A stretch of 64,000 nucleotides of DNA. It comes from Acidimicrobiia bacterium. Lineage in GTDB: Bacteria > Actinomycetota > Acidimicrobiia > Spongiisociales > ZC4RG35. Positions within the stretch are counted from its first letter, which is position 1. Every line of letters starts with the position of its first letter. The notes under the pieces are model-generated. The model was not told the origin of the DNA. It did no database searches and worked only from the letters and a program-made list of their open reading frames with translations. This document shows positions 11,186 through 46,945 of the stretch, piece after piece. The stretch spans positions 960,001 through 1,024,000 of the forward strand of contig OZ244034.1 of assembly GCA_965215185.1 (NCBI GenBank), in the 5' to 3' direction. A program made the position numbers and the translations under genes.

Positions 11186-11233
11186 CTGTGAGTATGTAGG
11201 GGGTGCTCTCGATTTGACAACCATAGGAGCATC
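11186..11233 (+). mobile_element. Collapsed IS110 footprint (C-type left end joined to A-type right end)
   Basis: CTGTGAGTATGTAGGGGGTGC resembles the left end at 21097-21076; 11208-11233 is identical (26/26) to the reverse complement of 18480-18505. Confidence 0.75.
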
Positions 11234-16405: not shown

Positions 16406-17944
16406 TCAGCCGGCCACCTCCAAGTCCCAAAGCCAGTACTCCTCGGCCGAACGCGGCTTGTAGTTGGCGACCCGATCACTCGTTGCTTCGAACGAGAACG
16501 GCACGTAGAGATAGATGAACGGTGGGTCGTCGTACATCTGCTGCTGCAATTGCCGGTACAGATCCGCACGAGCGTTGTCGTCGGGGGTCGCGAGTATCTC
16601 AAGGAGGAGGCTGTCAACCACCGGGTCGGACCATGCTGAGTAGCTCGCAGCTTGGCCGCCCATGGCCCCTTGCAGGCGGTCCCAGCCCTCGGGATTGGCG
16701 TTCGACCAACTGTCACCGAACAACGGCGGCAACTGCTTGTCCGCCTCCAGATCCCAGTACGCCCCGGACTCCATGATATCGAGCGACACGTTCACTCCTA
16801 CCTCGCCGAGCTGGGCCGCGACGGATTCGCACACCTGCTCGAAGTTGGTGTAGGCAGCTGACGGGCAGGCGAATCCGATGTCGAACCCCTCGGGATACCC
16901 GGCTTCGGCCAACAACTCCCGCGCCCGATCAGGGTCGTAGGAGAAGGGCGCGAGCGCATCGTTGTAACCGAAGTCGGCGGCCGTCATCAGCCCGGTGGCT
17001 CGGACGCCGTTGCCGTTGAACAGAGCGCCGATGACGCCATCGACGTCGACCGCATGGTTGAGGGCTTGGCGCACTCTGGGATCTTCGGTTGGTTGACCCA
17101 CACCGGAGGTGAGGTTGTTGAACGCGATGTAGTAGACCCGGTTGGTCGGATACTCAATGACGTTGACTCCGTCTACGCCCTCCAGCGATGCGGCTTCGTC
17201 GGGGCTGAGGCGGCTCACGATGTCGACTTCGCCCGTCTGGATCGCTGCGGCCCTGGTGGAGGACTCGGTGATCGGCCGGAAGATGATCCGGTCGAGCTTG
17301 GGGTAGCCCTTGCGCCAGTAGTTCGGGTTCCGGTCCAACACGATGCGGTCGCCCCGGACCCACTCGGTCAGCATGAACGGACCGGTGCCGATCGGCTCTT
17401 GGCCGAAGCCCGTCAGCCCGACCTCGGAGTAGTACTTGGGAGGAACGAAGAACCATATGGCGCCGGTGAGGCCGAGGAACAGTGCGTTGGGTTCCTGTGC
17501 GACTAGCTCGACGGTGTATTCGTCGATCTTGTTCACCTCGGCCGCTCGTTCGTAGTAGTTGAAGTAAGCGTTCTCCGGCTGCTTTTGCACTTCCCACGAG
17601 AACACCACGGCGTCCGCGTTGAACGGCTCGCCGTTGTGGAACATCACGTCCTCGCGCAGCTTGAACGTGTACCTGAGACCATCGTCGGACACTGTCCACG
17701 ACTCGGCGAGGGCCGGCTCGAACTCCAGGTCGTCGTTGATCCACACCAGCGGGTCGAATATCTGGTTGGACACGTTGCCCGCGTTTCGCTCGGCTGCGTT
17801 CGCACCGTCGAGCGCGTTGGGCTGCGTCGTGAGCGCGATCATCAGCTCGCCGCCCGGGGCTGTGCCACAAGCCGCCGCCATCAGAGCGAAGACGCCCACA
17901 AGCAAACACAATTTCCTCATTCTGGATATACGGTTATATGTCAT
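16406..17944 (-). CDS. Dpp/Opp-family ABC substrate-binding lipoprotein
   Basis: MAAAC lipobox, FHNGEPF, PIGTGPF; AGGAGG RBS. Confidence 0.92.
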   Translation of the reverse strand: MTYNRISRMRKLCLLVGVFALMAAACGTAPGGELMIALTTQPNALDGANAAERNAGNVSNQIFDPLVWINDDLEFEPALAESWTVSDDGLRYTFKLREDVMFHNGEPFNADAVVFSWEVQKQPENAYFNYYERAAEVNKIDEYTVELVAQEPNALFLGLTGAIWFFVPPKYYSEVGLTGFGQEPIGTGPFMLTEWVRGDRIVLDRNPNYWRKGYPKLDRIIFRPITESSTRAAAIQTGEVDIVSRLSPDEAASLEGVDGVNVIEYPTNRVYYIAFNNLTSGVGQPTEDPRVRQALNHAVDVDGVIGALFNGNGVRATGLMTAADFGYNDALAPFSYDPDRARELLAEAGYPEGFDIGFACPSAAYTNFEQVCESVAAQLGEVGVNVSLDIMESGAYWDLEADKQLPPLFGDSWSNANPEGWDRLQGAMGGQAASYSAWSDPVVDSLLLEILATPDDNARADLYRQLQQQMYDDPPFIYLYVPFSFEATSDRVANYKPRSAEEYWLWDLEVAG

Positions 17945-18044
17945 GTTTTCGCCTCCTGGTTGTTGCTGAAACGCCCCGGGTATCCCGGAGTGTGTTTTAC
18001 TTGAGTCCAGCTCGCTGGACTCGCTTCTGTTAATCATGGTAGTT

Positions 18045-18175
18045 GGTCCGGAACTGGCTTCGAGGGTGCGGTGCCGTTGGCCATCGCGAACTTAGCTTTG
18101 GTGGTGTAACGGGTGGGGTCTCCCACTCCGGCAAGGATCTCGGCTGCGACCAGGGCACCGATGCCGTAAATGTGA
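18045..18175 (-). pseudogene. Internal fragment of a D-type IS110 recombinase
   Basis: Translates HIYGIGALVAAEILAGVGDPTRYTTKAKFAMANGTAP, similar to the 24066..25094 protein. Confidence 0.75.
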
Positions 18176-18478
18176 GCCTGTATACATGTCTGTGTGAGGT
18201 GGGTTCTCTGAATCGCACCGATGCTCCTATTTTTGTCAAATTGATGCTTCTATGATCTCCAAATCGGGTTCGGGGGGTGGGTGGGCGTTTCGGTGGAGGG
18301 GTGGTTTCGGGGGTTGGTTGGTGGGTTTTCGAGGAGTCGGTAGAGCTGTCGGGCGATGTACCGTTTGAGACAGCGGCGGGTTTCGCGGGTGGTTTTGCCT
18401 TGGCTGGTGCGTTTGCCGATGTAGGCCCGGGTTTTGGGACAGTATCGGGAGCGGCTGATGGCGATGGTGTGGATGGCT

Positions 18479-19955
18479 TGATGCTCCTATGGTTGTCAAA
18501 TCGAGTTTTGGTGGGGTGTGAGGGTGGTGAGCCATTGGTGGTATTGGGTGGCGAGTTGATGGTTGTGGTAGATGCCTCGCTCGAGTTGTGAGAGGCGTAC
18601 TGGGTAGGTTTGTAGGGCTGTGGCGGCGTGGGTGAGGGTTGTTAGCGCGTTTTTGCGTAGACAGCGAAGATGGGCGCCGTTGGGAGTTTCGGGTGGATTG
18701 GTGAGCAGGTGGTAGATCTGGCGGGCGATGTGGCGTTTCAGGCAGCGGATGATCTCCCGGCGGTTTTTGCCTTCTGTTTGTCTTTTTTGGGCGTAGGCGA
18801 TGGTGGTCTGGTCGTAGCGCATGCGGGTGATGGCGATCCGCCACAGGGCATTGTTGGCTTGGCGGTTGCCGCCCCGGTTGAGCCGGTGGCGTATGGTCCG
18901 TCCCGACGACGCCTGGACGGGACTGGCGCCGCACAATGCTGCGAAGGACGCTTCCGATTGCATGCGTTCGGGGTTGTCACCGGCGGTGACCAACAGGGCA
19001 GCGGCGGTGTCGGCGCCGACTCTGGAGGCGGCTAACAGCGCCGGGTTGACCTGGGCGCAGAGATGGTTGATGTCGGTGGTGAGTTCTTCGATCTCGGCGG
19101 TGAGCGCCTGATATCGGCGGGCCAGGGAACGCAGCGCCTTTTTGGCGTAGGTGACGGTGATGGTGGCTGTTCGGGAACGGAAACCGGCGCAGGCCTTGAC
19201 GCGGGCTTTGGCCGGCAGTCTCTCTAGCTGGTGTTTGACCTGGTCGGGGGCGGTTACCACCAAAGCGTGCAGCTGGTTTATGGCCTGGGTGCGGGCTTTG
19301 GTCGCCGAACGGCGGGCCACCGAAAGCATCCGTATTGCTTCCACTCGACCGTTGCCGCTTTTGGGCACTGCGGTGGCCTGTCCGTTGAGAACCGCCCGTG
19401 CCGCTCCTTGGGCGTCGGTGGCGTCGGTCTTGCCCAACCGGCGGCGCAACTGCCGGTTGGGACGGTTCACCTCTGTCACCTGACACCGGCCTCGGTTAGA
19501 TAACGGGCCAGACCGGCGCCGTAACTGCCGGTGCCCTCTATACCGACCCGGACCACTCGACCGTGTGACCCCAACCAGTCGCCCAGTTGCTGATAACCGG
19601 CCGTGTCGGCCACGAAGGGGGCTGTTCCCAGGACCCGACCGGTGCTGTCCACCACCGCCGCCATGTGAACATCCCGGTGGGTGTCCACCCCACCGCACAC
19701 ATCTACCTGCTGACCTACTGACATGAACAATCCTCCTTGGATAGAATTCTGGCTAATCACCCAGACCCGGTGGCGGGTGGACAGACCACTCAGAATGAGG
19801 GAGAAGCAAAGCTCCTATCAGGTCACATCCGCCCACGGGTCGGGTGAACATCCCCCAGCCGGAAAACAGGCCGACAGATCAAGCCAAAGGCACAACGGCC
19901 AGGTTGAGTTTGGGTCAGACCTGCCCCGGCCTAGGGGCCCTTACAAGTATGAGTG
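18479..19955 (-). mobile_element. IS110 element A (CA core at both ends), recombinase frameshifted
   Basis: CDS 19724-18496 with a frameshift near 19484; GVDTH, EGTG, KTDATDA, SSG motifs; C-terminal HTH-like tail. Confidence 0.9.
19760..19940 (-). ncRNA. Putative bridge RNA of IS110 element A (ends approximate)
   Basis: Segments 19910-19902 and 19885-19880 match the insertion target; 19818-19811 and 19792-19787 match the element ends. Confidence 0.8.
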
Positions 19956-20859
19956 GTTGAGTTGGCGGTCGCCGCGTCGGTTCAGTCGGTGACGGGTGTG
20001 TTGTCCCGATGAGGCTTCGAGTGGTGCTACGCCGACTAGACGAGCGAAGGCGGCTTCGTTGCGGCAGCGGCGAGGATGAGACCAGGCAATGAACACTTGG
20101 GCGGCTGTGATAGGGCCGATCCCGGGTTGTTGGAGTAGCTGGGGAGCTACGGTTTGGACCAGTTCGGTGATAGTTGTTTTGAGTTCGGTTGCTTCGGTGG
20201 TGAGTGCGTGGATTCTCCGGGCTGCAGAACGCATCGCCTGTTTGGTGGCGGTGTGTTCGTTGGCCGGTGCTGATCTGAGTCGGAACTTGTGGCATTTGGT
20301 GACCAGGGCAGCAGTGCTCAGGTCACGCAGTTGGTCTCTGAGGTCAATGGGCGCGGTCACTAGGAGGGCTTTCAGTTCGTTGATCGCCGATGTTCTAGCT
20401 GTTATGGCACCACGGCGGGTAGTTTCCAGTACTCGTAGGGCTTCTCGTTCTCCCCTGGCCCGCGGTGTGGGAGGCCGGGAGCGGCCCAGCGCCTGGCGGG
20501 CGGCCCGGCGAGCGTCCAGTGCGTCGGTTTTGGCGCCGTCTCCGGTTGTTGGGTTGGGGTTGTTGAATTCTGTTACCCATTCACCTCGAGCGGCGAGATG
20601 GCTGGTCAGGCCTGCTTCATAGCTACCGGACCCTTCAACAGACCACACGCGACTGGCGGTCTGGGTGTGCTGGTCTGCCCATTTCAACAACCGGTCGTAT
20701 CCCACCCTGGTGGTCTCGAACATTGCGGATGCTTGTTCTCCGGTGGTGGCAGTGTCAACTACTGACGCGGTGACCCGATCACGGTCAGGATCGATTCCGA
20801 TCACATGCTCTACCGTTGTGGCCAACATCAGGACATCTCCCTTCTTCTTTGCGAACTGG

Positions 20860-21075
20860 GTTGTGCCCCGGCTGAGGCGCGATCCGCGAACGGCAGGACT
20901 GTGATGAGTCACACCCCTTTGGGGTGGACAGGCTTCTGATTAGGCCAGCGCGGTACGCCAGGTCGGCGCTGGTGGTCAATGTCGGACAGATCATAGGAAA
21001 GACACCAATCCGGGTCAGTCAAATTTAGGGTCACGACATCACTACCAGCACCGAGCCTGAGAACCTCCAAGAAGG
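20860..21075 (-). ncRNA. Putative bridge RNA of IS110 element C (ends approximate)
   Basis: Shared scaffold TGACC..GTGTCTTT..ATCTGTC; guides AAATTTGAC, CCTATG, AGAAGC, TCACAG. Confidence 0.72.
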
Positions 21076-21097
21076 GCACCCCCCCATATTCTCACAG

Positions 21098-21178
21098 TCA
21101 AATTGATGCTTTTATGATTTGGAAATCGCTTTTCGGGGGTGGGGGTTATTTGAGCTTTTTGGTGGGGGGTTTTCTAGT
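21098..21178 (-). mobile_element. 3' tip and right end of a second C-type IS110, truncated by IS481
   Basis: LENPPPKSSNNPHPRKAISKS* followed by AAGCATC end. Confidence 0.7.
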
Positions 21179-22109
21179 TGTCCTTCCCATGGACGTGGTT
21201 GACAGAATGCTTGGATGAGTGAGGGCCTCCTGGTTTGATTCGTGGGATAAGCAACAGTCCTCGAATCAAAAGGAGGCCCTCGTGAGAACCAACTGTAGAA
21301 AGTTGACACCGTTCGGGCGTAGGTTGTTGGTGGATCGGATCCTCGAGTTGGGTTGGCCGGCGGCTCGGGCCGCTGAATCGGTGGGAGTGTCTCGGCAGAC
21401 TGCCTATCGGTGGATGAGACGCTGGCGGGAGGAAGGAGAGGCCGGACTGGAGGATCGCTCCAGCAGGCCTCACCACAGTCCCAATCGGGTCTCTTCTGAG
21501 ATGGAAAAGCGGATCGTTTCGGATCGGATCACAGAGAAGGAAGGCCCCCATCTGATGGCCGGACGGCTGGGTGTACCGCGGTCGACCATCTACGGGGTGC
21601 TCGCCCGCCGGGGACTGTCCCGCCTCTCCGACTTGGACCGGACCACCGGCACACCGATCCGCTATGTGCGAGACTGCCCAGGTGAACTGGTCCACGTGGA
21701 CATCAAGAAACTGGGCAAAATACCTGATGGAGGCGGGTGGCGGGTCCTGGGCCGGTCTCGGGCTAATCCCCGTCAAAAGGTCGGATATGAGTATGTGCAC
21801 TCCATGGTCGATGACCACACCCCAATGGCCTACTCAGAAGCCCTCGACTCCCAGGACGGCCCAACCTGCGCCGGGTTCATGCTCCGCGCCGCCCACTGGT
21901 TCGCCACCTACGGGTATCGCATAGACCGAGTAATGACCGACAACGCCATGGCCTACCGCCGAAGCCGACCCTTCGCCGATGCCCTCGCCCAGATCGGCGC
22001 CGCTCACAAACTGATCCGACCCTACCGACCCCAAACCAACGGGAAAGTGGAACGCTTCCACCAAACCCTCCTCGGAGGATGGGCCTACAAACAACCCTAT
22101 ACCACCAAC
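21179..22109 (+). mobile_element. IS481-family element, 3'-truncated (transposase from GTG 21282)
   Basis: TGT terminus, LTPFGR, HVDIKKLG, TDN, PQTNGKVERF; hairpin over the RBS; cut at YTTN by an IS110 left end. Confidence 0.88.
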
Positions 22110-22150
22110 CACTCATACTTGTAGGTGGAGTTCCCCCGTTATTAAGGACA
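22110..22150 (+). mobile_element. IS110 A-type left-end footprint followed by an IS3-like terminal repeat
   Basis: CACTCATACTTGTA identical to A and B left ends; TGGAGTTCCCCCG resembles the end at 45337. Confidence 0.65.
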
Positions 22151-22262
22151 TCTATTCTGTGATCGTGAGGGGTGGTGTTGGTCTCTCGGGAAGGAGGTTT
22201 GAATGCCTGCTCCCTGCCAAGCCCAGAGATTGAACAGATTCTTTCGTGACTCGGTTGGGATA

Positions 22263-22440
22263 TCATTTGCCTAAGTAGCGGCTCCATTGTTCCATTATTT
22301 CGCGGCGTCGTTCCAGGAGGTCGGTTCGGGCGTTGGCCTTTTCTACCGCTTTTAGGATTTCGTGACCGAGGGCCTGTTCCGCCACTTCGCGGCTGATCCC
22401 TGTTTCACGACACCAATCCCGAAACGAGCTTACGCATGTG
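22263..22440 (-). pseudogene. C-terminal fragment of a tyrosine integrase
   Basis: SSFRDWC..EQALGH..EKANARTDLLE (catalytic Tyr replaced by Asn). Confidence 0.8.
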
Positions 22441-24065
22441 GCGGGCACCTCGTGGACGGACGGTTGATGTCCGATCTCACCGGGGGGAAGGTAGCGAGAG
22501 CCTTTTCGCTGTCAAGCGTTCCCCGACAATCCAGTTGGGCAACCCCGGCTACTACCGGCAAGACGAGAAGTTGCTGGTTTGGGATTTGAAAGGAGTGTGC
22601 CCTGGCTGACGAACCGCGGGTCGAGGAACGGCGGAATGGCCCGGCGGATCTAGGGAGGCAAAGGGGAAACGACACCGGAGAAGCCCACACACATCCTCTG
22701 CGGGGGGATAGGCGAAGTTGCCTACACAGGCGTATTCGTCAGAGAGAAGGTCCAGATTTTCTACCTCTACGGAGACAACTGCCTGATCTTCTGCGCAGCG
22801 ATAGCGCCCCGCAACTAGCCGACAGCCAACAACACCTACTCCATGTACCCGCCTGAATCGCGCCGGGTTTCAGTTTGTCCCAATCGGTGCCATGGAAAGG
22901 GTTTGCCCCTTCAGATGTGTAGGTAGCGGTTCCAGTGTTCCATTAGTTGGCGGCGTTGTTCTAGCAGGTCGGTTCGGGCGTAGGCTTTTTCTACAGCGTT
23001 TCGGATTTCGTGTCCGAGGGCCCGTTCGGCGACTTCCCGGTTTACGCCTGTTTCTCCGCACCAGTCTCGAAACGAGCTTCTCATCCCGTGTGGCACACAA
23101 CCCACCTGGTTCTCCTTGCAAAGTTTGCTCATAGTGGCATTGCTCATTGTCCGTCCGGTGGGGGATGGGAAGATCAAACCAGTGCTGGTTGATGTTTGGC
23201 GTGCGGTGAAGAGAACCTTTAGTGCCCCGGTGCTGAGCGGAACCCGGTGTTTTGTCCGGTTTTGGTGTGTTCTGGGGGGATTGTCCAGGTTGCTGTGGCA
23301 AGGTTAATCTCGTCCCATGTGGCGTTTCTGACCTCCCCGCTACGGGTGGCGGTGAGGGTGAGGAATGTGAAAGCGGCGATGGTAGCCCAGTGAGCGTCGG
23401 TGGTTTCGACAGTCCGTATTGCCGTGGCGACTTGGCTGTGGTGGAGGGCTTTCATGTGTTGGGGTCGTTGGGTGTTGGAGCCCAGGGCGGCGGTGATACG
23501 GTCGTCGGCTGGGTTGTTCTCTCGGAACCCCTGGGCGATGCACCATTTCATGACCGCGGCGATCCGTTGTTTGACGCGGCGGGCCGTTTCGGGTGTTGTG
23601 TGCCATATGGGGGTGAGGCAGGCCATGACATTGGCTGTGGTGATTTGGTCCACCCGTTTTTTCCCAAGGTGAGGATAGGCGTAGGTGTGGAGGGTTGACC
23701 GCCAGTGTTCTTCGGACCTGCCGCCAGGTTTCCATTTGGCGGCGTGAAGCTGGATTACTTGTTCGGTGGCCTGGCGAAAGGTGGGTGCTTTGCGGGGGCG
23801 GGGGTTGCGGCCTTCTGCGATGGCTTGGCGGTTTCGGAGAGCCCGCCGGCGGGCTTCGGCGAGGGTGACTGCTGGGTAGCTACCCAGGCCCAGGTTGGTG
23901 TATCTGCCGTTGATCTGGTTTCGTTGTGCCCAGGTTTTGGAGAGTCGCCCCTGGATTTTGGTTGGTTTGACCAACAGAGAAAGTCCATGGCCGCCTCGGC
24001 CGTCGCCATAGCGTCCGGGTTGGGTCACTGTTCTAACGAAAGATGCTGTGAGTGTTGGTGAGCTC

Positions 24066-25094
24066 CTATGTCAAAATCGGGGTTGGTTTTGGTGGTTGGA
24101 GGTGGGTCCAGATGCGGTCTGAGATTCGGCGTTTGAGGACGCGTATGGCGTCTCTGTGGGTCTTTCCTCGGGTGATGAGTTTCTGGTAGTAGCGGCGGCC
24201 TTCGCTGTCTGCGCGGGCGATCTGGGTCAAAGCGGCGGTGTGGATGGCCCGGTTTAGTTGGCGGTTCCCACCCCGGTTGAGTCGATGGCGTACTACTCGT
24301 CCGCTGCTGGCTTCGATGGGTGCGGTGCCGTTGGCCATGGCGAACTTGTCTTTGGTCGCATAGCGGTGTGGGTTGCCCACCTCCGAAAGGATGGTGGCAG
24401 CGACCAGTACACCCACCCCGTGAATGTCTAGTAGACGGGTTTCGGATTGGTCGACCAGTGTTTTGATCTCGGCGGTGAGTTGTTTGATCTCGGTGTCCAG
24501 TTGTCGCAGTCTTCGGATGCGTTGTTTGGCTACCCGCCCGTGGGGGGTGGTGTCCCGCCAACACAGTTTCATGGCCTGGTCGAGGGCTTTTCGGGTGGTG
24601 AGCCGGGGAATGTTCTGGTGGTAGCCTGGTCGGAGTTTCCCCAGGTCGGCGTGGAGCCGGTTGGCCTGGGCGGTGCGGTCTTCTACCAGTTCACGGCGGT
24701 ATGAGACCAGCACACGGAGGTCTTCGGTGTCCTCCCAAAACGTCGGCGGGGCGAGCGTGTTGTCTCGGAGAGCGACCCTGGCGATCACCCAAGCGTCGAC
24801 CTGGTCGGTTTTGGTCTGGGTACGGCCCCGGCGCCGGACCTGGGCGGTCAGCTGCGGTGGAACCTCCCGGATGTCCAGACCAGCGGCCATAGCGGCGACC
24901 GCGGCTGGGCGGCCGAACGTGCCGGACCCCTCGACCGCTACCCTGGCGGCGTTGGTGGTGTGAGCCCAATCTATGAGTTGACGGTGACCAGTAGGGGTGT
25001 TAGCGATGGTCCGGTACTCCAGGGCGGTGCCCAGGTGGTCTACCAAACAGGCAGAAAGGGTATCCTTGTGCGAGTCGATCCCGATAACGAACAT
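24066..25094 (-). CDS. IS110 family recombinase, intact
   Basis: GIDSHK, VEG, KTDQVDA, ASSG, HRLNRGGNRQLN. Confidence 0.93.
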   Translation of the reverse strand: MFVIGIDSHKDTLSACLVDHLGTALEYRTIANTPTGHRQLIDWAHTTNAARVAVEGSGTFGRPAAVAAMAAGLDIREVPPQLTAQVRRRGRTQTKTDQVDAWVIARVALRDNTLAPPTFWEDTEDLRVLVSYRRELVEDRTAQANRLHADLGKLRPGYHQNIPRLTTRKALDQAMKLCWRDTTPHGRVAKQRIRRLRQLDTEIKQLTAEIKTLVDQSETRLLDIHGVGVLVAATILSEVGNPHRYATKDKFAMANGTAPIEASSGRVVRHRLNRGGNRQLNRAIHTAALTQIARADSEGRRYYQKLITRGKTHRDAIRVLKRRISDRIWTHLQPPKPTPILT

Positions 25095-25119
25095 GGTTCA
25101 ATCCTCCAATTTCGGGGGT

Positions 25120-25305
25120 TTGCGGGAGCGGCAGAAGGCTCGGCGAAGCGCATCCATGCGTCGAAACAACACCCCCACAGGGGGCAGATACAAGTCACGC
25201 TCCTATCAAGCGACAACACCGAGCGGGCAACCGGTGGGGAGACACTCACTAACTAAGCCACCACAATGGGGCAGGGTCGTTTGGAGTCATCCCCACCGGC
25301 ACTGC
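25120..25305 (-). ncRNA. Putative bridge RNA of IS110 element D (ends approximate)
   Basis: CCGGTGGGGA/TCCCCACCGG stem encloses guides AAACGACC and TTAGTG; donor guides ATAGGAGC and ACGCATG. Confidence 0.8.
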
Positions 25306-25511
25306 CACACCCCAACATATAACACGCATGGTCGTTTCACCCCTGCTTCTCCCTGTCCGCCAATCCAGAGAAGGTCCGGTACCGCCGACTATTTCTAGTG
25401 TGGGTTACTTCGATAGTTATCAACATTGCAATGCGATTAGGTGCAACCCCGTGAGACTGTCTGGAACTACCTAGGACACCAATACCCTGTTGACCTGGGC
25501 AAATATGAACC

Positions 25512-25544
25512 ATATGGGACACTATGCGCCTATATGGGACACTA
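25512..25544. repeat. Direct repeat ATATGGGACACTA x2, candidate integrase arm sites
   Basis: 13-bp repeat with 20-bp period upstream of the integrase. Confidence 0.55.
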
Positions 25545-25805
25545 AACCCGCGGACGTCACCTCCACTGCACCCTCACCCGCCTGGAAACACCGTAGAAAA
25601 GCAGTGACAGCCTTCCCCTGACAGGACGGTGACTGTTTGGCGGTCTGCGACGAATGTGCCAGGCGGAATGTCTGAGTGCGGTAGAATACGTAATGTGCAG
25701 ATCGGAGTCCGAATTGCCTGTTTGGAGCAGAACAACCATGAACACCGCGCTCGGGGGGATTGGACCCGGCGGTCTGCCGTACCGTTCATCCTATCCCGGG
25801 AGAAG

Positions 25806-25826
25806 TGTGGGACGGATTGTGGGACG
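25806..25826. repeat. Direct repeat TGTGGGACG x2, candidate integrase arm sites
   Basis: Adjacent to the tRNA fragment; the motif recurs at 28792. Confidence 0.55.
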
Positions 25827-25866
25827 AATGGGCGAATTTGGCCATCTACCTGGTTAAAGACGGGGT

Positions 25867-25908
25867 CTCATAGTCCGTTGGTTGCAGGTTCGAGTCCTGC
25901 CGGGCCCA
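25867..25908 (+). other. 3' half of tRNA-Ile2/Met (CAT), att-site remnant
   Basis: CTCATA anticodon loop, GCAGG-TTCGAGT-CCTGC T arm, CGGGCCC-A acceptor strand; no matching 5' half. Confidence 0.8.
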
Positions 25909-26084
25909 CACCGTTCCACCTCGTTCCGTGGGGTTTCACGCATTGCTAAACGCCCAGGTCAGAGGCCCCATTTGCATTCACAGTGGCACTGACATCCCCC
26001 GCATATGGCGTTGCTGAATTCCCAAGTTGTTTCTGGTAGTTTCATCTCATTGTGGGGCAGCATGGAACAGAATAGGGGGCAGAA

Positions 26085-30236: not shown

Positions 30237-30302
30237 CCGCTACCAGTTGCGGAACTGACACACCTTCAAACCCCGAGGCTCTCAGGGCTTGCTCGGCGCT
30301 TG

Positions 30303-30410
30303 TCTCAAAACGGTACTTCGCTCGACAACTCTGCCGACCCCTCGAAAACCCACCACCAACCACCCCAGAATCCGATTTGCAAGACATAGAAGCACAACCA
30401 TAGGAGCATC
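30303..30410 (+). mobile_element. C-type IS110 3' remnant whose right end sits inside an A-type right end
   Basis: KRYFARQLCRPLENPP; ATAGAAGCAC|AACCATAGGAGCATC. Confidence 0.72.
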
Positions 30411-40618: not shown

Positions 40619-40845
40619 GATGCTTCTATATTTTACAAATCGATGCTTGATGGCTCTTCGATGCTCCTATGTTTTACAAATCGGGGGTGAGCCAGTGTTG
40701 GTATAGGGTGGCGAGGTGATGCTTCTTTTATTCAAAATCGTGTTTTTCGGGGTGGTGGGTGTTTCGGTGTTGAGGTTCCCCCGTTTTGGCTGGTTTTTTG
40801 GTAGGTTTTGGTTGGTTGTGGGGTTGGCGGGTTTCGAGGAGTCGG
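40619..40845 (-). mobile_element. Stack of IS110 right-end footprints and 3' remnants
   Basis: GATGCT at 40619, 40642, 40660 and 40718; peptides RLLETRQP.. and HLATLYQHWLTPDL*. Confidence 0.78.
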
Positions 40846-45336: not shown

Positions 45337-45644
45337 GTGGAGCTACCCGGGTTTGGTGGTACCCCACTTTGGTGGAGTCGGGTTATTTGAATTGGTGGTG
45401 TGACTGACCCGAAAGGAGTCTTCATGCCTTATCGATATCCACCCGAGTTCCGTCGCAGGGTGCTCGACCTGTTGGCAGTTGGTAGGTCGGTAGCGTCGTT
45501 GTCAGCGGATCTGGGGGTGTCTGATCAGACGATCTACAACTGGCGGCGCCAAGACCGAATCGACCGCGGTCTACAACCCGGTGCCACTTCGGAGGAACAG
45601 GCCGAACTGTGGGCCGCTCGCCGTCGGATCGTCGAGCTGGAAAC
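45337..45644 (+). mobile_element. IS3-family left end and orfA (from 45424), cut by IS110 B
   Basis: MPYRYPPEFRRRVLDLL..QTIYNWRRQ..RIVELET|. Confidence 0.85.
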
Positions 45645-46866
45645 CACTCATACTTGTAAAGGCCTCTAGGCCGGGGCGGGTCTGACCCTTACGAAACCTG
45701 GCCTTGTGTCTTTAGTTCGATCTGTCGGCCTGCTTTCCGGCCTGGAGGCGCAGCATTCCTGACTGGGACGGGATGTGACCTGATAGGAGCCTTGCTTCTC
45801 CACCACCGTGAGTGGCCTGCCCACCCGCCCCGGGTCAGGGAATACCAGGCGATTCTATCCCCAAAAGGAGAAAAGGGATCATGTCAGAAGATCGTAAGGT
45901 TGACATTTGTGGTGGGGTTGATACCCATCGTGATGTTCATGTGGCTGTGGTTGGTTGACACCGCCGGGCGGGTCTTGGGCTCGGCGCCGTTCACAGCCGA
46001 CTATGAGAAACTGGGCGACTGGTTACAGTCCCACGGCAGCGTGGTCCGAGTTGGGGTGGAGGGCACCGGTAGCTACGGCGCTGGCCTGGCCCGCCACCTA
46101 ACCAGAGCCTGTGTCAAGGTGGTGGAGGTGAACCGTCCCAACCGGCAGCTGCGCCGCTTCAGGGGCAAAACCGACATCGTGGACGCTGAGAACGCCGCCC
46201 GGGCTGCTCTCAGTGGGCAGGCCACCGCCCAACCCAAAAGCGGTGACAGACCAGTCGAGGCGATCAGAATGCTGGGGGTGGTCCGTCGTTCGGCGATCAA
46301 AGCCCGCACCCAGACCATCAACCAACTACACGCCCTGGTAGTGACCGCTCCCGAGCAGGTCAAACACCAACTCGGGGAGCTAACCCCCAAAGACCGCGTC
46401 AAAGTCTGTGCCGCTTTTCGTCCCCGCCCAGATGACACCACCATCGCCTATGCCAAACAAGCGCTACGCATCCTGGCCCGCCGATATCAGACGCTCACCA
46501 CCGAAATCACAGAACTCGACACCCACATCAACCGTCTCTGCGTCCGAGCCAACCCGGCACTGTTAGCCACCCCAGGGATCGGCGCGGACACTGCCGCCAC
46601 CCTACTGATCGCAGCCGGTGACAACCCCCACCGCCTGCACTCAGAAGCGTCCTTCGCCGCCCTGTGCGGCGCCAGTCCCGTCCAGGCGTCCTCGGACAAA
46701 CCATACGGCACCGGCTCAACCGCGGCGGGAACCGCCAAGCCAACAACGCTTTGTGGCGCATCGCCATCACCCGCATGAGCTACGACCAGACCACCATCGC
46801 CTACGTCCAAAAACGCCAAACGGAAGGCAAAACCCGCCGGGAGATCATCCGCTGCCTGAAACGCAC
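45645..46866 (+). mobile_element. IS110 element B (A-type), recombinase from 45881 frameshifted, right end lost
   Basis: GGVDTHRD, EGTG, KTDIVDA, ASSG; left end homologous to element A. Confidence 0.87.
45660..45840 (+). ncRNA. Putative bridge RNA of IS110 element B (ends approximate)
   Basis: Scaffold and donor guides shared with A; target guides TACGAAACC and AGTTCG differ. Confidence 0.78.
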
Positions 46867-46945
46867 TCAACCGTTGCTGTACTGCCCCGACCAGCCCGTC
46901 AGCCGAGCGCAAATGGCCTCGTTCATAATCAGATCCCTTCCCTAA
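46867..46945 (+). pseudogene. C-terminal SLH-domain fragment
   Basis: YCPDQPVSRAQMASFIIR*. Confidence 0.6.

What the first reader, a model, noticed from the sequence alone, without database searches (positions are those of the whole stretch)
18220..21118. Reciprocal IS110-on-IS110 parasitism: A targets C's recombinase gene, C targets the -35 box of other IS110 right ends
Seen: A sits precisely in the conserved RQLN|QA codons of C, and removing it restores a 367-aa ORF. C's target guides AAATTTGAC and CCTATG predict TTTGAC-ATAGG, which is the right end of D (TTTTGACATAGGAG, about 24063-24077) and close to A-type ends. C's left flank is AATTTGAC. At 30395 a C-type end is followed by the rest of an A-type end (AACCATAGGAGCATC). 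Inference: the subfamilies are programmed against each other, one disabling the recombinase and the other splitting the circle promoter/donor site. This would be an RNA-guided conflict or safe-harbour strategy that I do not recognise as described. Caveat: C's actual right flank (AATTTG) does not match Y.
Basis: partly seen in the sequence, partly recalled or inferred. Interest (0 to 1): 0.82.

Follow-up and report, generated by a model that had tools for sequence, protein, structure and literature searches.

The report
Guide-RNA insertion sequences nested in each other
This is a pile of decayed IS110-type jumping genes whose own guide RNAs are written to land inside other jumping genes, which shows that RNA-guided transposons can specialise on one another.

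Summary
All elements lie on the minus strand.

- **A in C:** element A (1475 bp, 18480-19954) splits the recombinase gene of element C at the RQLN|QA codons. Taking A out restores a 367-aa ORF.
- **Family:** A, C and D carry both IS110 recombinase domains. Each has a 5' structured RNA with a hypervariable target loop.
- **Guides track flanks:** left match 6.57 of 9 against 3.47 when shuffled, across 54 junctions.
- **A's target:** its guides spell AACTCAAC-C-AAGCCA. The only two perfect left half-sites in the genome are both occupied by A, in C-type genes only 78% identical. A third case lies in another genome.
- **C's target:** its guides spell AATTTGAC|ATAGGA, the -35/donor part of D-type right ends. 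Relatives sit exactly there, one with both flanks perfect.
- **Unexplained:** C's own right flank does not fit its guide, and a 13-bp repeat flanks it.
- **Scale:** 10 of 20 left-end junctions lie in IS110 DNA, which is 0.88% of the genome. Four more lie in other IS families.

Whether this is conflict or safe harbour is untested. I rate it a new variant of known IS110 targeting.

The parts
21105..21175 (-). C0: 3' remnant and right end (...ATCATAAAAGCATC) of another C-type element. It is cut off upstream by an IS481-family element.
   Evidence: Homologous to the 3' end of the C-type copy at genome 2,341,2xx. IS481 domains are found at 21219-22121. The upstream limit is approximate.
21097..21104 (-). 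AATTTGAC: left target half for C (core C at 21097). It is the first copy of the 8-bp repeat, or 13 bp when the preceding GCATC is counted.
   Evidence: Matches C's left guide 8 of 9. The same 13 nt, GCATCAATTTGAC, recur at 18247-18235.
20829..21096 (-). C left end (268 nt non-coding) encoding the bridge RNA. The left target guide TAAATTTGAC is at 21027-21018 and the right target guide TCCTAT(GA) at 20998-20991.
   Evidence: Homology among 8 C-type copies starts at CTGTGAG. The consensus fold places both variable stretches in one internal loop. Coordinates are read.
19955..20828 (-). C recombinase gene, 5' part (291 codons, ending ...GDRQLN, plus one base).
   Evidence: DEDD_Tnp_IS110 (E 5.9e-15). 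Transposase_20 (E 1e-15) is cut at profile position 65 of 87.
18480..19954 (-). A: an IS110-family element of 1475 bp inserted in C. Left guide AAACTCAACC at 19911-19902. Right guide TGGCTT(GA) at 19886-19879. Donor guides GATAGGAGC at 19819-19811 and TGAGTG at 19792-19787. ATG at 19723. Private 1-nt deletion near 19481. Stop at 18496-18498. Right end GATTTGACAACCATAGGAGCATC at 18502-18480.
   Evidence: The frameshift is absent from 4 of 4 other A-type copies aligned.
18250..18479 (-). C recombinase gene, 3' part (QAIHTIAIS...IWRS, then stop).
   Evidence: Reads on in frame once A is removed.
18243..18265 (-). C right end, GATTTGGAGATCATAGAAGCATC.
   Evidence: The same motif ends 11 C-type copies in the genome. 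None of the 11 carries TTTGAC.
18220..18242 (-). Tail of an A-related ('F-type') right end, AATTTGACAAAAATAGGAGCATC. It begins with the second copy of AATTTGAC.
   Evidence: The same right end occurs whole at genome 1,095,994, 1,612,692 and 1,621,891. The flank that follows, GGTGCGATTCAG, resembles flanks of other right ends.
18034..18180 (-). Fragment of a D-like IS110 recombinase gene (IYGIGALVAAEILAGVGDP...NGTAP).
   Evidence: Transposase_20, E 2.1e-5.
24058..25330 (-). D: an intact IS110-family element (342-aa ORF). Its right end GATTTTGACATAGGAGCT (24078-24061) is the cognate target of C's guides and is unoccupied.
   Evidence: Three identical copies in the genome. Both Pfam domains present. 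1 mismatch to the predicted 14-mer. The outer limits are approximate.
30300..30410 (+). C-type 3' remnant ending ...CATAGAAGCAC, then the A-type right-end tail AACCATAGGAGCATC, then GATGAGCC.
   Evidence: GATGAGCC is the right flank of A-type copies that sit at the end of an ISL3-family gene.

Best explanation
The interval is a layered nest of IS110-family insertion sequences. These use a DEDD recombinase plus a bridge RNA encoded in the left end.

How each element finds its site. The RNA has an internal loop with a left and a right target guide. The left guide copies about 9 nt of the DNA left of the insertion point. The right guide is complementary to about 6-8 nt on the right. A second loop matches the element's own ends.

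A. Its loop is written for AACTCAAC-C-AAGCCA. In this genome that sequence exists only in one sub-lineage of C-type recombinase genes. A inserted there without any duplication, cutting the Transposase_20 domain and removing the last 76 residues.

C. Its loop is written for AATTTGA-C-ATAGGA. This is the stretch of a D-type right end that carries the -35 hexamer TTGACA and the left donor site. In the window C landed at a site that fits only the left guide: AATTTGAC in the right end of an A-related element, just behind an older C-type remnant.

Why these targets (inferred). I think guides aimed at other insertion sequences persist because such DNA is dispensable, multi-copy and travels with the elements. 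That makes it a safe harbour with many landing pads. Knocking out the host element is then a side effect, not the purpose.

Shown: the anatomy, the guide-flank correspondence and the repeated independent hits. Inferred: the RNA itself, its activity and the selective reason.
For: - Family: C, A and D all carry DEDD_Tnp_IS110 plus Transposase_20.
- A is scarless: removing it restores a 367-aa ORF.
- RNA structure: in 14 A-type and 14 C-type left ends a conserved stem encloses two hypervariable stretches around a small hairpin. There are 44 predicted pairs in each set, with two-sided compensatory changes at 5 and 4 pairs.
- Donor guides: A's GATAGGAGC matches its right end CATAGGAGC. TGAGTG pairs with the left-end start CACTCA in 12 of 14 sequences.
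- Guides track flanks: left match 6.57 of 9 against 3.47 shuffled (maximum 4.37 in 2000 shuffles; n=54). Right match 3.81 against 1.82 (maximum 2.47; n=32).
- A: 9 of 9 left and 6 of 6 right. No intact 15-mer with 1 mismatch or fewer remains in the genome. The only 2 perfect left half-sites both carry A.
- Independent events: the second host gene is about 78% identical to C while the A copies are 99-100% identical. A third A sits in a C-type gene at R(K)LN| in G009.
- C: 4 genome hits to its 14-mer at 1 mismatch or fewer, namely 3 D right ends and 1 end-like site.
- C's relatives: they sit at TTTGAC| of D-type ends in G001, G004 and G011, and the G011 copy has 9 of 9 and 6 of 6. Two C-type ends in this genome are followed by the D tail ATAGGAGCTCAC.
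- Genome scale: 10 of 20 left-end junctions lie in IS110 DNA. Four more lie in other IS: IS256, an IS3 orfA, and ISL3 twice. 14 of 27 right-end junctions abut IS110 DNA. IS110-like DNA is 0.88% of the genome.
- In relatives, other elements of these types sit in or at the ends of IS256, ISL3 and IS21 istB genes.
Against: - C's own right flank (AATTTGAC...) does not match its right guide. GCATCAATTTGAC stands on both sides of C, and no single conservative recombination explains that.
- One of the four copies carrying A's left guide (G011) sits at the end of an ISL3 gene, where its guides do not fit (3 of 9 left, 2 of 6 right). It belongs to A's lineage along its whole length. So location is not always set by the present guide.
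- A's 15-nt target is not unusually conserved among C-type elements: rank 739 of 1366 windows. 'Aims at the most conserved codons' therefore holds for the protein motif only.
- Every copy in the interval is decayed. A has a frameshift and C is split. No run showed a convincing empty site or a circle junction.
- Some flanks were classed by eye only (PD40-like, helicase-like, end-like motifs).
- Genomes of one genus are kin, so counts across them are not independent.
- Persistence bias applies: insertions into dispensable DNA survive longer, which inflates the nested share without any preference.
Confidence: 0.8

Rival explanations
1. Antagonism. Lineages gain by disabling rival insertion sequences. 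On this view guides are selected to hit functional parts of rivals: recombinase codons, the -35 of the circle promoter, and the donor loop of the bridge RNA gene.
For: - Hits fall on functional parts. RQLN|QA and RQAN|NA lie inside Transposase_20. HRLN| lies in a D-type gene in G007. KR|YIAR is hit as well.
- TTGAC|A splits the -35 hexamer.
- C-type copies lie antisense exactly at the right donor guide of A-type left ends in G000 (twice) and G003.
- Both directions occur between the A and C types.
- C-type right ends lack TTTGAC in 0 of 11 cases, against 12 of 16 for A-type ends. That would spare C-type elements from their own guides.
Against: - Other recurrent sites leave the host element whole. 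Insertion just upstream of GATTTGAC, between the stop codon and the right end, keeps the promoter and the donor site.
- Insertion at TTGAC| keeps the host's left donor site at the far end, so the pair could still move together.
- Targets also include non-IS genes.
- No fitness or activity data exist.
- The missing TTTGAC in C-type ends is shared by C-type branches that do not aim at TTGAC, so common descent can explain it.
Confidence: 0.2
2. Donor half-match growth of IS110 loci. New copies enter occupied loci because the donor loop recognises the similar ends of resident copies, as proposed for 'expanded IS110 loci'. The target loop would not be written for them.
For: - Two bioRxiv preprints bear on this. 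For 10.64898/2026.08.14.744561 I read the abstract and section 8. For 10.64898/2026.08.31.748434 I read the abstract and section 8. They report recurrent insertion into occupied IS110 loci, tandem modules and one-sided matches.
- C's right junction GCATC|AATTTGAC is the same as that of the older C-type remnant upstream. That is what a left-donor-only event would give.
- The G011 copy with unfitting guides could be a replacement through shared ends.
Against: - The junctions studied here are not at donor boundaries. A lies in codons that resemble neither end of C.
- End-directed insertions fall 15-23 nt inside the host right end.
- In each case the left target guide spells the flank.
- A donor-only event at the remnant's junction would not leave AATTTGAC in front of C's left end.
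Confidence: 0.1
3. No targeting of IS as such. The nest is an old graveyard in which chance insertions and homologous recombination between copies piled up.
For: - The region is decayed and rearranged. At 371-375 kb the right end of an A copy abuts a different gene from the one its left end interrupts.
- There are truncated ends and scars at window 11233 and 40619-40660.
- An IS481 element cuts a remnant.
Against: - The same codon is hit three times in diverged hosts.
- Guide-flank matches lie beyond all 2000 shuffles.
- 10 of 20 junctions fall in 0.88% of the genome.
- The same junction types recur in 6 of 17 genomes of the genus.
Confidence: 0.03

Closest known systems
IS621 and other IS110-group elements with bridge RNAs (Durrant et al. 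2024, PMC11208160; passages read through 'find')
   Same: A DEDD recombinase plus Transposase_20 domain. A long non-coding left end. An RNA with a target loop and a donor loop. Scarless, sequence-specific insertion. A promoter rebuilt across the right end-left end junction. For A I read TTGACA-17-CATACT by eye.
   Different: That paper says such elements often target repetitive elements of the host genome. Here the guides are written for other insertion sequences, including their own family. The shared core seems to be a single C or xC rather than CT. Rfam 15 found no family at E of 1 or below.
IS1383 into the inverted repeats of IS1384 (Muller et al. [quoted passage not shown] I saw only the titles, in the reference list of PMC11208160.
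   Same: An IS110/IS1111-family element whose specific target is the end of another mobile element.
   Different: Those targets belong to unrelated families and are terminal repeats. Here the targets include the family's own right end (-35 and donor site), recombinase codons and the bridge RNA gene. Hits go both ways between subfamilies, and the guide-flank match can be read directly.
Expanded IS110 loci and half-match recombination (bioRxiv 10.64898/2026.08.14.744561 and 10.64898/2026.08.31.748434; abstracts and section 8 of each read)
   Same: Repeated insertion into occupied IS110 loci. Tandem or partial modules. One-sided guide matches. C's left-only match, and two G012 copies with TTGAC| on the left and an unfitting right flank, fit that behaviour.
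   Different: Those papers tie internal boundaries to the host element's donor ends. A 'find' for 'nested', 'TBL' and 'target-binding' in the first preprint gave 0 occurrences. Here the target loop itself spells the other element's sequence.

Membership tests
IS110 family, IS110 group (bridge-RNA insertion sequences) | Recombinase with an N-terminal DEDD (RuvC-like) domain and a C-terminal Transposase_20 domain | tested here: met
   C 5' part: PF01548 at 5.9e-15 and PF02371 at 1e-15 (cut at profile position 65 of 87). A: PF02371 at 8.8e-17 and PF01548 at 1e-9. D: 6.2e-31 and 1.8e-20.
IS110 family, IS110 group (bridge-RNA insertion sequences) | Long non-coding left end upstream of the gene and a short right end | tested here: met
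   A has 231 nt and C has 268 nt before the ATG. Right ends run about 20-25 nt past the stop region.
IS110 family, IS110 group (bridge-RNA insertion sequences) | Insertion without target duplication, leaving only a short shared core | tested here: inconclusive
   Met for A: removal restores the ORF exactly, with one shared C. Not met for C in the window, which is flanked by an 8-bp (13-bp) direct repeat. Terminal inverted repeats were not tested.
IS110 family, IS110 group (bridge-RNA insertion sequences) | Left-end RNA with a target loop whose two guides covary with the flanks | tested here: met
   Consensus folds of 14 plus 14 left ends. Shuffle test on 54 left and 32 right junctions.
IS110 family, IS110 group (bridge-RNA insertion sequences) | Donor loop matching the element's own right and left ends | tested here: met
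   A: GATAGGAGC against the right end CATAGGAGC, and TGAGTG against CACTCA in 12 of 14. C: AGAAGC and CTGTGA against its ends, read by eye.
IS110 family, IS110 group (bridge-RNA insertion sequences) | Circle formation, junction promoter and RNA-guided recombination activity | not testable with these tools
   The promoter was read by eye only. Contigs of 4 runs gave no usable circle junction.
IS1111 group (seekRNA downstream of the gene, subterminal inverted repeats) | Guide RNA region 3' of the recombinase gene | tested here: not met
   The guide-bearing loops lie 5' of the gene in A, C and D. Subterminal repeats were not searched for.
Expanded IS110 loci by donor half-match | Internal insertion boundaries match the left or right donor end of the host element | tested here: not met
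   The A-in-C boundaries (AACTCAAC / AAGCCA) resemble neither of C's ends. C's right junction alone equals that of the neighbouring remnant, which is inconclusive for that one junction.
IS110-family elements that target ends of other mobile elements (IS1383, IS4321/IS5075 type) | Insertion at a fixed position in the end of another transposable element, recurring in independent copies | tested here: met
   C-type elements sit at TTTGAC| of D-type ends in G001, G004 and G011 and in two remnants in G000. Two sampled C-type copies, one each in G012 and G008, lie 56 and 41 nt past an IS256-family ORF. G012 has 10 and G008 4 matches to C's left end, and several share that flank.

The most novel reading that the evidence does not exclude
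Natural bridge RNAs form a targeting network among transposons. IS110 lineages in this Acidimicrobiia genus keep re-writing their target loops, partly by swapping whole left ends. The loops aim at functional sequences of rival insertion sequences: IS110 recombinase codons, the circle-promoter -35, the donor loop of the rival's bridge RNA gene, and the genes or ends of IS256, ISL3, IS21 and IS3. Their own ends are kept free of the targeted motif. This would be RNA-guided hyperparasitism or warfare between transposons, and it could also lower the host's load of active IS.
Probability: 0.2. Interest if true: 0.85.

Novelty: new variant of a known kind. Interest (0 to 1): 0.62.

Why it matters
Bridge RNAs are studied mainly as programmable editors, and little is known about what their natural programmes aim at. 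In this genus a large share of guides aim at other transposons. Targets include the same recombinase motif in both directions and the rival's own bridge RNA gene.

This offers several things:
- A natural set of matched guide-target pairs.
- Left-only matches.
- An element sitting where its guide does not fit.
- Near-identical bodies carrying different left ends.

It makes testable how target specificity evolves, and whether transposon-on-transposon insertion is shelter, hitch-hiking or conflict. It also warns annotators that IS110 genes in such genomes are often split by other IS110 copies.

Tried and rejected
1. Is C a chimera of two copies, which would explain the wrong right flank? C's 3' 237 nt are 91% identical to another copy whose 5' part is only 78% identical. 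The same excess holds for all C-type relatives: 3' at 86-92% against 78-85% for the 5' ORF. So this is no evidence either way.

2. I could not derive the 13-bp repeat around C from any single event. I considered insertion guided by both target halves or by the left half alone, a donor-only event at the remnant's junction, tandem duplication (the remnant is only about 80% like C's end), and gene conversion. It remains unexplained.

3. 'A aims at the most conserved nucleotides' is rejected. Its target window ranks 739 of 1366.

4. Rfam gave no match at E of 1 or below over 17500-26000.

5. Reads. Contigs of 4 runs (X8, X1, X2, X6) were laid at 90% likeness.
- Several short contigs join C across A's place, but with sides of 20-35 nt and extra letters. 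These are most likely other, unbroken C-type copies.
- One X1 contig skips exactly 1475 nt (side 22 nt). That is too short to count as an empty site.
- All 4 runs have contigs carrying the base that A lacks near 19481. This fits either a private deletion or an assembly error.

6. Junction patterns in 150 other genomes of the order gave 0 matches. That sample held no other genome of the genus, so it says only that the junctions were not found outside the genus in those searched. The third genus pattern was mis-written, with one letter too many, and is not used.

7. Literature. Searches found no paper describing IS110 target loops written for other IS110 elements or for transposase codons. Supplements are closed, so lists of natural targets in the supplements of PMC11208160 and PMC11187229 may contain such cases.

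Full report
**What is there**

The window is part of a single-contig genome of 3.12 Mb with 60.7% G+C. Public record titles name the relatives of its IS110 elements as Acidimicrobiia MAGs.

Read on the minus strand from 21175 down to 18034, the interval holds these parts in order:
- The last 70 nt or so of a C-type element (C0), ending ...ATCATAAAAGCATC at 21105.
- AATTTGAC (21104-21097).
- Element C, from TGTGAG at 21096 to ...ATAGAAGCATC at 18243.
- AATTTGAC again, followed by AAAAATAGGAGCATC (18242-18220). Together these are the tail of the right end of an A-related element.
- A fragment of a D-like recombinase gene.

C itself is split by element A (19954-18480).

A, C and D each carry the two IS110 recombinase domains. 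In C the Transposase_20 match stops at profile position 65 of 87, exactly where A begins. An IS481-family element at 21219-22121 cuts off C0.

**The observation**

- Removing A, with one shared C kept, restores a 367-aa ORF reading ...GDRQLNQAIHTIAIS....
- C's left boundary comes from an alignment of 8 C-type copies whose likeness begins at CTGTGAG.
- C's right boundary comes from the motif GATTTG......ATAGAAGCATC, which ends 11 C-type copies.

**Are these guides?**

In both types the left end contains a fixed frame: TGACCC-(10 nt)-TG[AG]CC ... CTT-(6 nt)-GAT.TGTC (17 hits in the genome).

Consensus folding of 14 A-type and 14 C-type left ends puts the two variable stretches on either side of a 3-bp hairpin, inside a long conserved stem. 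There are 44 pairs in each set, with two-sided compensatory changes at 5 and 4 pairs. That is the layout of a bridge RNA target loop.

- The first stretch repeats the DNA left of the element. This can be seen copy by copy.
- The second stretch is the reverse complement of the DNA on the right.
- Over 54 distinct left junctions (16 in this genome and 38 in relatives, one of them mis-parsed) the left match is 6.57 of 9, against 3.47 for shuffled pairings (maximum 4.37 in 2000).
- Over 32 right junctions the match is 3.81, against 1.82 (maximum 2.47). My register is off by one base in some A-type rows, which lowers the observed figure.
- A second loop carries GATAGGAGC (A's right end is CATAGGAGC) and TGAGTG, which pairs with the left-end start CACTCA in 12 of 14 sequences.
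- The two exceptions are copies in which a C-type element sits antisense at exactly that point.

**A into C**

- A's guides give AACTCAAC-C-AAGCCA, with a 9 of 9 and 6 of 6 match to C.
- No intact site with 1 mismatch or fewer is left in the genome. The two perfect left half-sites are both followed by A's left end.
- The second site is at genome 374,09x. The host gene there is about 78% identical to C, while the A copies are 99-100% identical. These were therefore separate insertions.
- In G009 a further A-type left end with the same guide start follows ...RHRLNRRGDRKLN| of a C-type gene.
- In G007 one A-type copy lies at HRLN| of a D-type gene with a fitting guide. Another lies at CLK|R of an A-type gene.
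- A in the window has a private 1-nt deletion, absent from 4 of 4 other copies aligned.

**C into right ends**

- C's guides give AATTTGA-C-ATAGGA. The genome has 4 hits at 1 mismatch or fewer: the three identical D copies and one end-like site.
- Close relatives of C's left end (87-94% identical) carry TCAATTTGAC / TCCTAT.
- They lie behind ...CAATTTGAC of D-like genes in G004 and G011, and behind GATTTTGAC of a D gene in G001.
- The G011 copy has ATAGGAGCTCA on its right, so both halves are perfect.
- In this genome two C-type right ends are followed by ATAGGAGCTCAC with different DNA beyond.
- Junctions of the form right end plus right-end tail occur in 6 of 17 genomes of the genus.
- Other branches of the same clade keep the left word ..ATTTGAC but have other right guides. 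Two sampled copies, one each in G012 and G008, lie 56 and 41 nt past an IS256-family ORF. G012 has 10 and G008 4 matches to C's left end, and several of these share that flank.

**The reverse direction and the wider pattern**

C-type elements are found at several kinds of site in A-type elements:
- In A-type genes at RQAN|NA, four bases from the homologous point of A's own target. Examples: the copy at 372 kb, which sits inside the second A; the remnant at 1613 kb; and locus L114 from another lineage, with guide GCAACAACGT.
- Antisense at the right donor guide of A-type left ends, twice in G000 and in G003. One G016 copy lies antisense in the 5' part of an A-type left end.
- Just upstream of GATTTGAC in A-type right ends.

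A-related 'F-type' copies sit at TTGACAAAC| of other right ends and at KR|YIAR.

Counts for this genome:
- Of 20 left junctions, 10 lie in IS110 DNA and 4 in other IS. The latter are IS256 antisense, an IS3 orfA at window 45648, and the end of an ISL3 gene twice. One lies beside an integrase gene and 5 lie elsewhere.
- 14 of 27 right junctions abut IS110 DNA.
- IS110-like DNA is 0.88% of the genome.

In relatives, 6 of 36 parsed left flanks have an IS110 gene directly beside them. Others lie in ISL3, IS21 istB and IS256 genes or ends.

**What does not fit**

- C's right flank is AATTTGACAAAAATAGG..., not ATAGGA, and GCATCAATTTGAC stands on both sides of C. A left-only match is plausible. Two G012 copies also have ...GATTTGAC| on the left and an unfitting right flank, and half-site recombination has been reported in vitro. 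The repeat itself remains unexplained.
- The G011 element with A's guide sits at the ISL3 site that belongs to another A-type branch. It is of A's lineage throughout.
- The copy at 2,398,00x is 96-100% identical to A over most of its body, but its left end is only 54-81% identical and carries other guides. So left ends, and with them targets, are exchanged between elements.
- A's 15-nt target is only averagely conserved among C-type elements.

**Meaning**

The insertions are guide-directed. That part I hold at about 0.8.

Why guides aim at other IS is open.
- I favour a safe harbour with many landing pads. Several recurrent sites leave the host element intact, and targets span five IS families.
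- Antagonism remains possible. It is the more novel reading, because many hits disable a recombinase, a promoter or a guide loop.
- Growth by donor half-matches cannot explain junctions that the target loop spells out.

**Comparison with what is known**

- Known: bridge-RNA-directed insertion by IS110 elements. Known from titles only: IS110-family members that target ends of other mobile elements. Known from preprints: repeated insertion into occupied IS110 loci.
- Not found in my searches: target loops written for the family's own recombinase codons, right-end promoter and bridge RNA gene; hits in both directions between subfamilies; and transposase genes of other families as targets.

Noticed in passing
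window 18235-18247 and 21097-21109: The 13-nt word GCATCAATTTGAC stands on both sides of C. It consists of the end of a C-type right end plus AATTTGAC. No single conservative recombination gives this arrangement.
   Followed up: partly
genome 2,396,495-2,398,004 (L030) compared with window 18480-19954: This copy is 96-100% identical to A over most of its body, but its first 300 nt are only 54-81% identical and carry different guides. It lies in a gene that I judged by eye to be PD40-repeat-like. It looks like a swap of the whole guide-bearing left end.
   Followed up: partly
L003/L062 (G011): An element of A's lineage with A's left guide lies 4 nt past the stop codon of an ISL3-family gene. 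Its guides do not fit there. That site is the regular target of another A-type branch.
   Followed up: partly
window 24058-25330 and genome 1,647 kb and 2,652 kb: There are three identical, intact D-type copies. Their right ends are unoccupied targets for C's guide, while every C-type copy examined in this genome looks broken.
   Followed up: partly
window 11209-11233 (+): The first 25 nt of a C-type left end (CTGTGAGTATGTAGGGGGTGCTCTC) are fused directly to GATTTGACAACCATAGGAGCATC. This looks like a scar of an element once inserted just upstream of an A-type right end. A similar join is at genome 1,095,994.
   Followed up: no
window 40619-40690 (-): Two right-end motifs lie 18 nt apart: ...GATTTGTAAAACATAGGAGCATC, then GAAGAGCCATCAAGCATC, then GATTTGTAAAATATAGAAGCATC. 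The arrangement is unexplained.
   Followed up: no
window 45391-46915 (+): An A-type copy interrupts an IS3-family orfA (HTH_Tnp_1) at ...IVELET|. Its left guide fits 6 of 9.
   Followed up: partly
window 21180-22300 (+): An IS481-family element (LZ_Tnp_IS481 and rve domains) truncates the C-type remnant upstream of C.
   Followed up: partly
genome-wide right flanks (window 18219, window 11234, genome 1,283,656 and 1,095,972; L147, L148): Several A-type right ends are followed by GGTGCGGTTCA-like words in otherwise unlike DNA. This is a recurrent right target half whose nature I did not resolve.
   Followed up: no
C-type elements, last 240 nt (window 18243-18479): The stretch from the RQLN codons to the right end is 86-92% identical among C-type copies, while the rest of their ORFs is 78-85% identical. 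No reason was established.
   Followed up: partly
L143 (G008): An A-type left end follows ...AALNLRRLIN| with a fitting guide (TTCATCAACC). By eye this resembles the C-terminal motif of an IS5/IS4-type transposase. It was not tested.
   Followed up: no
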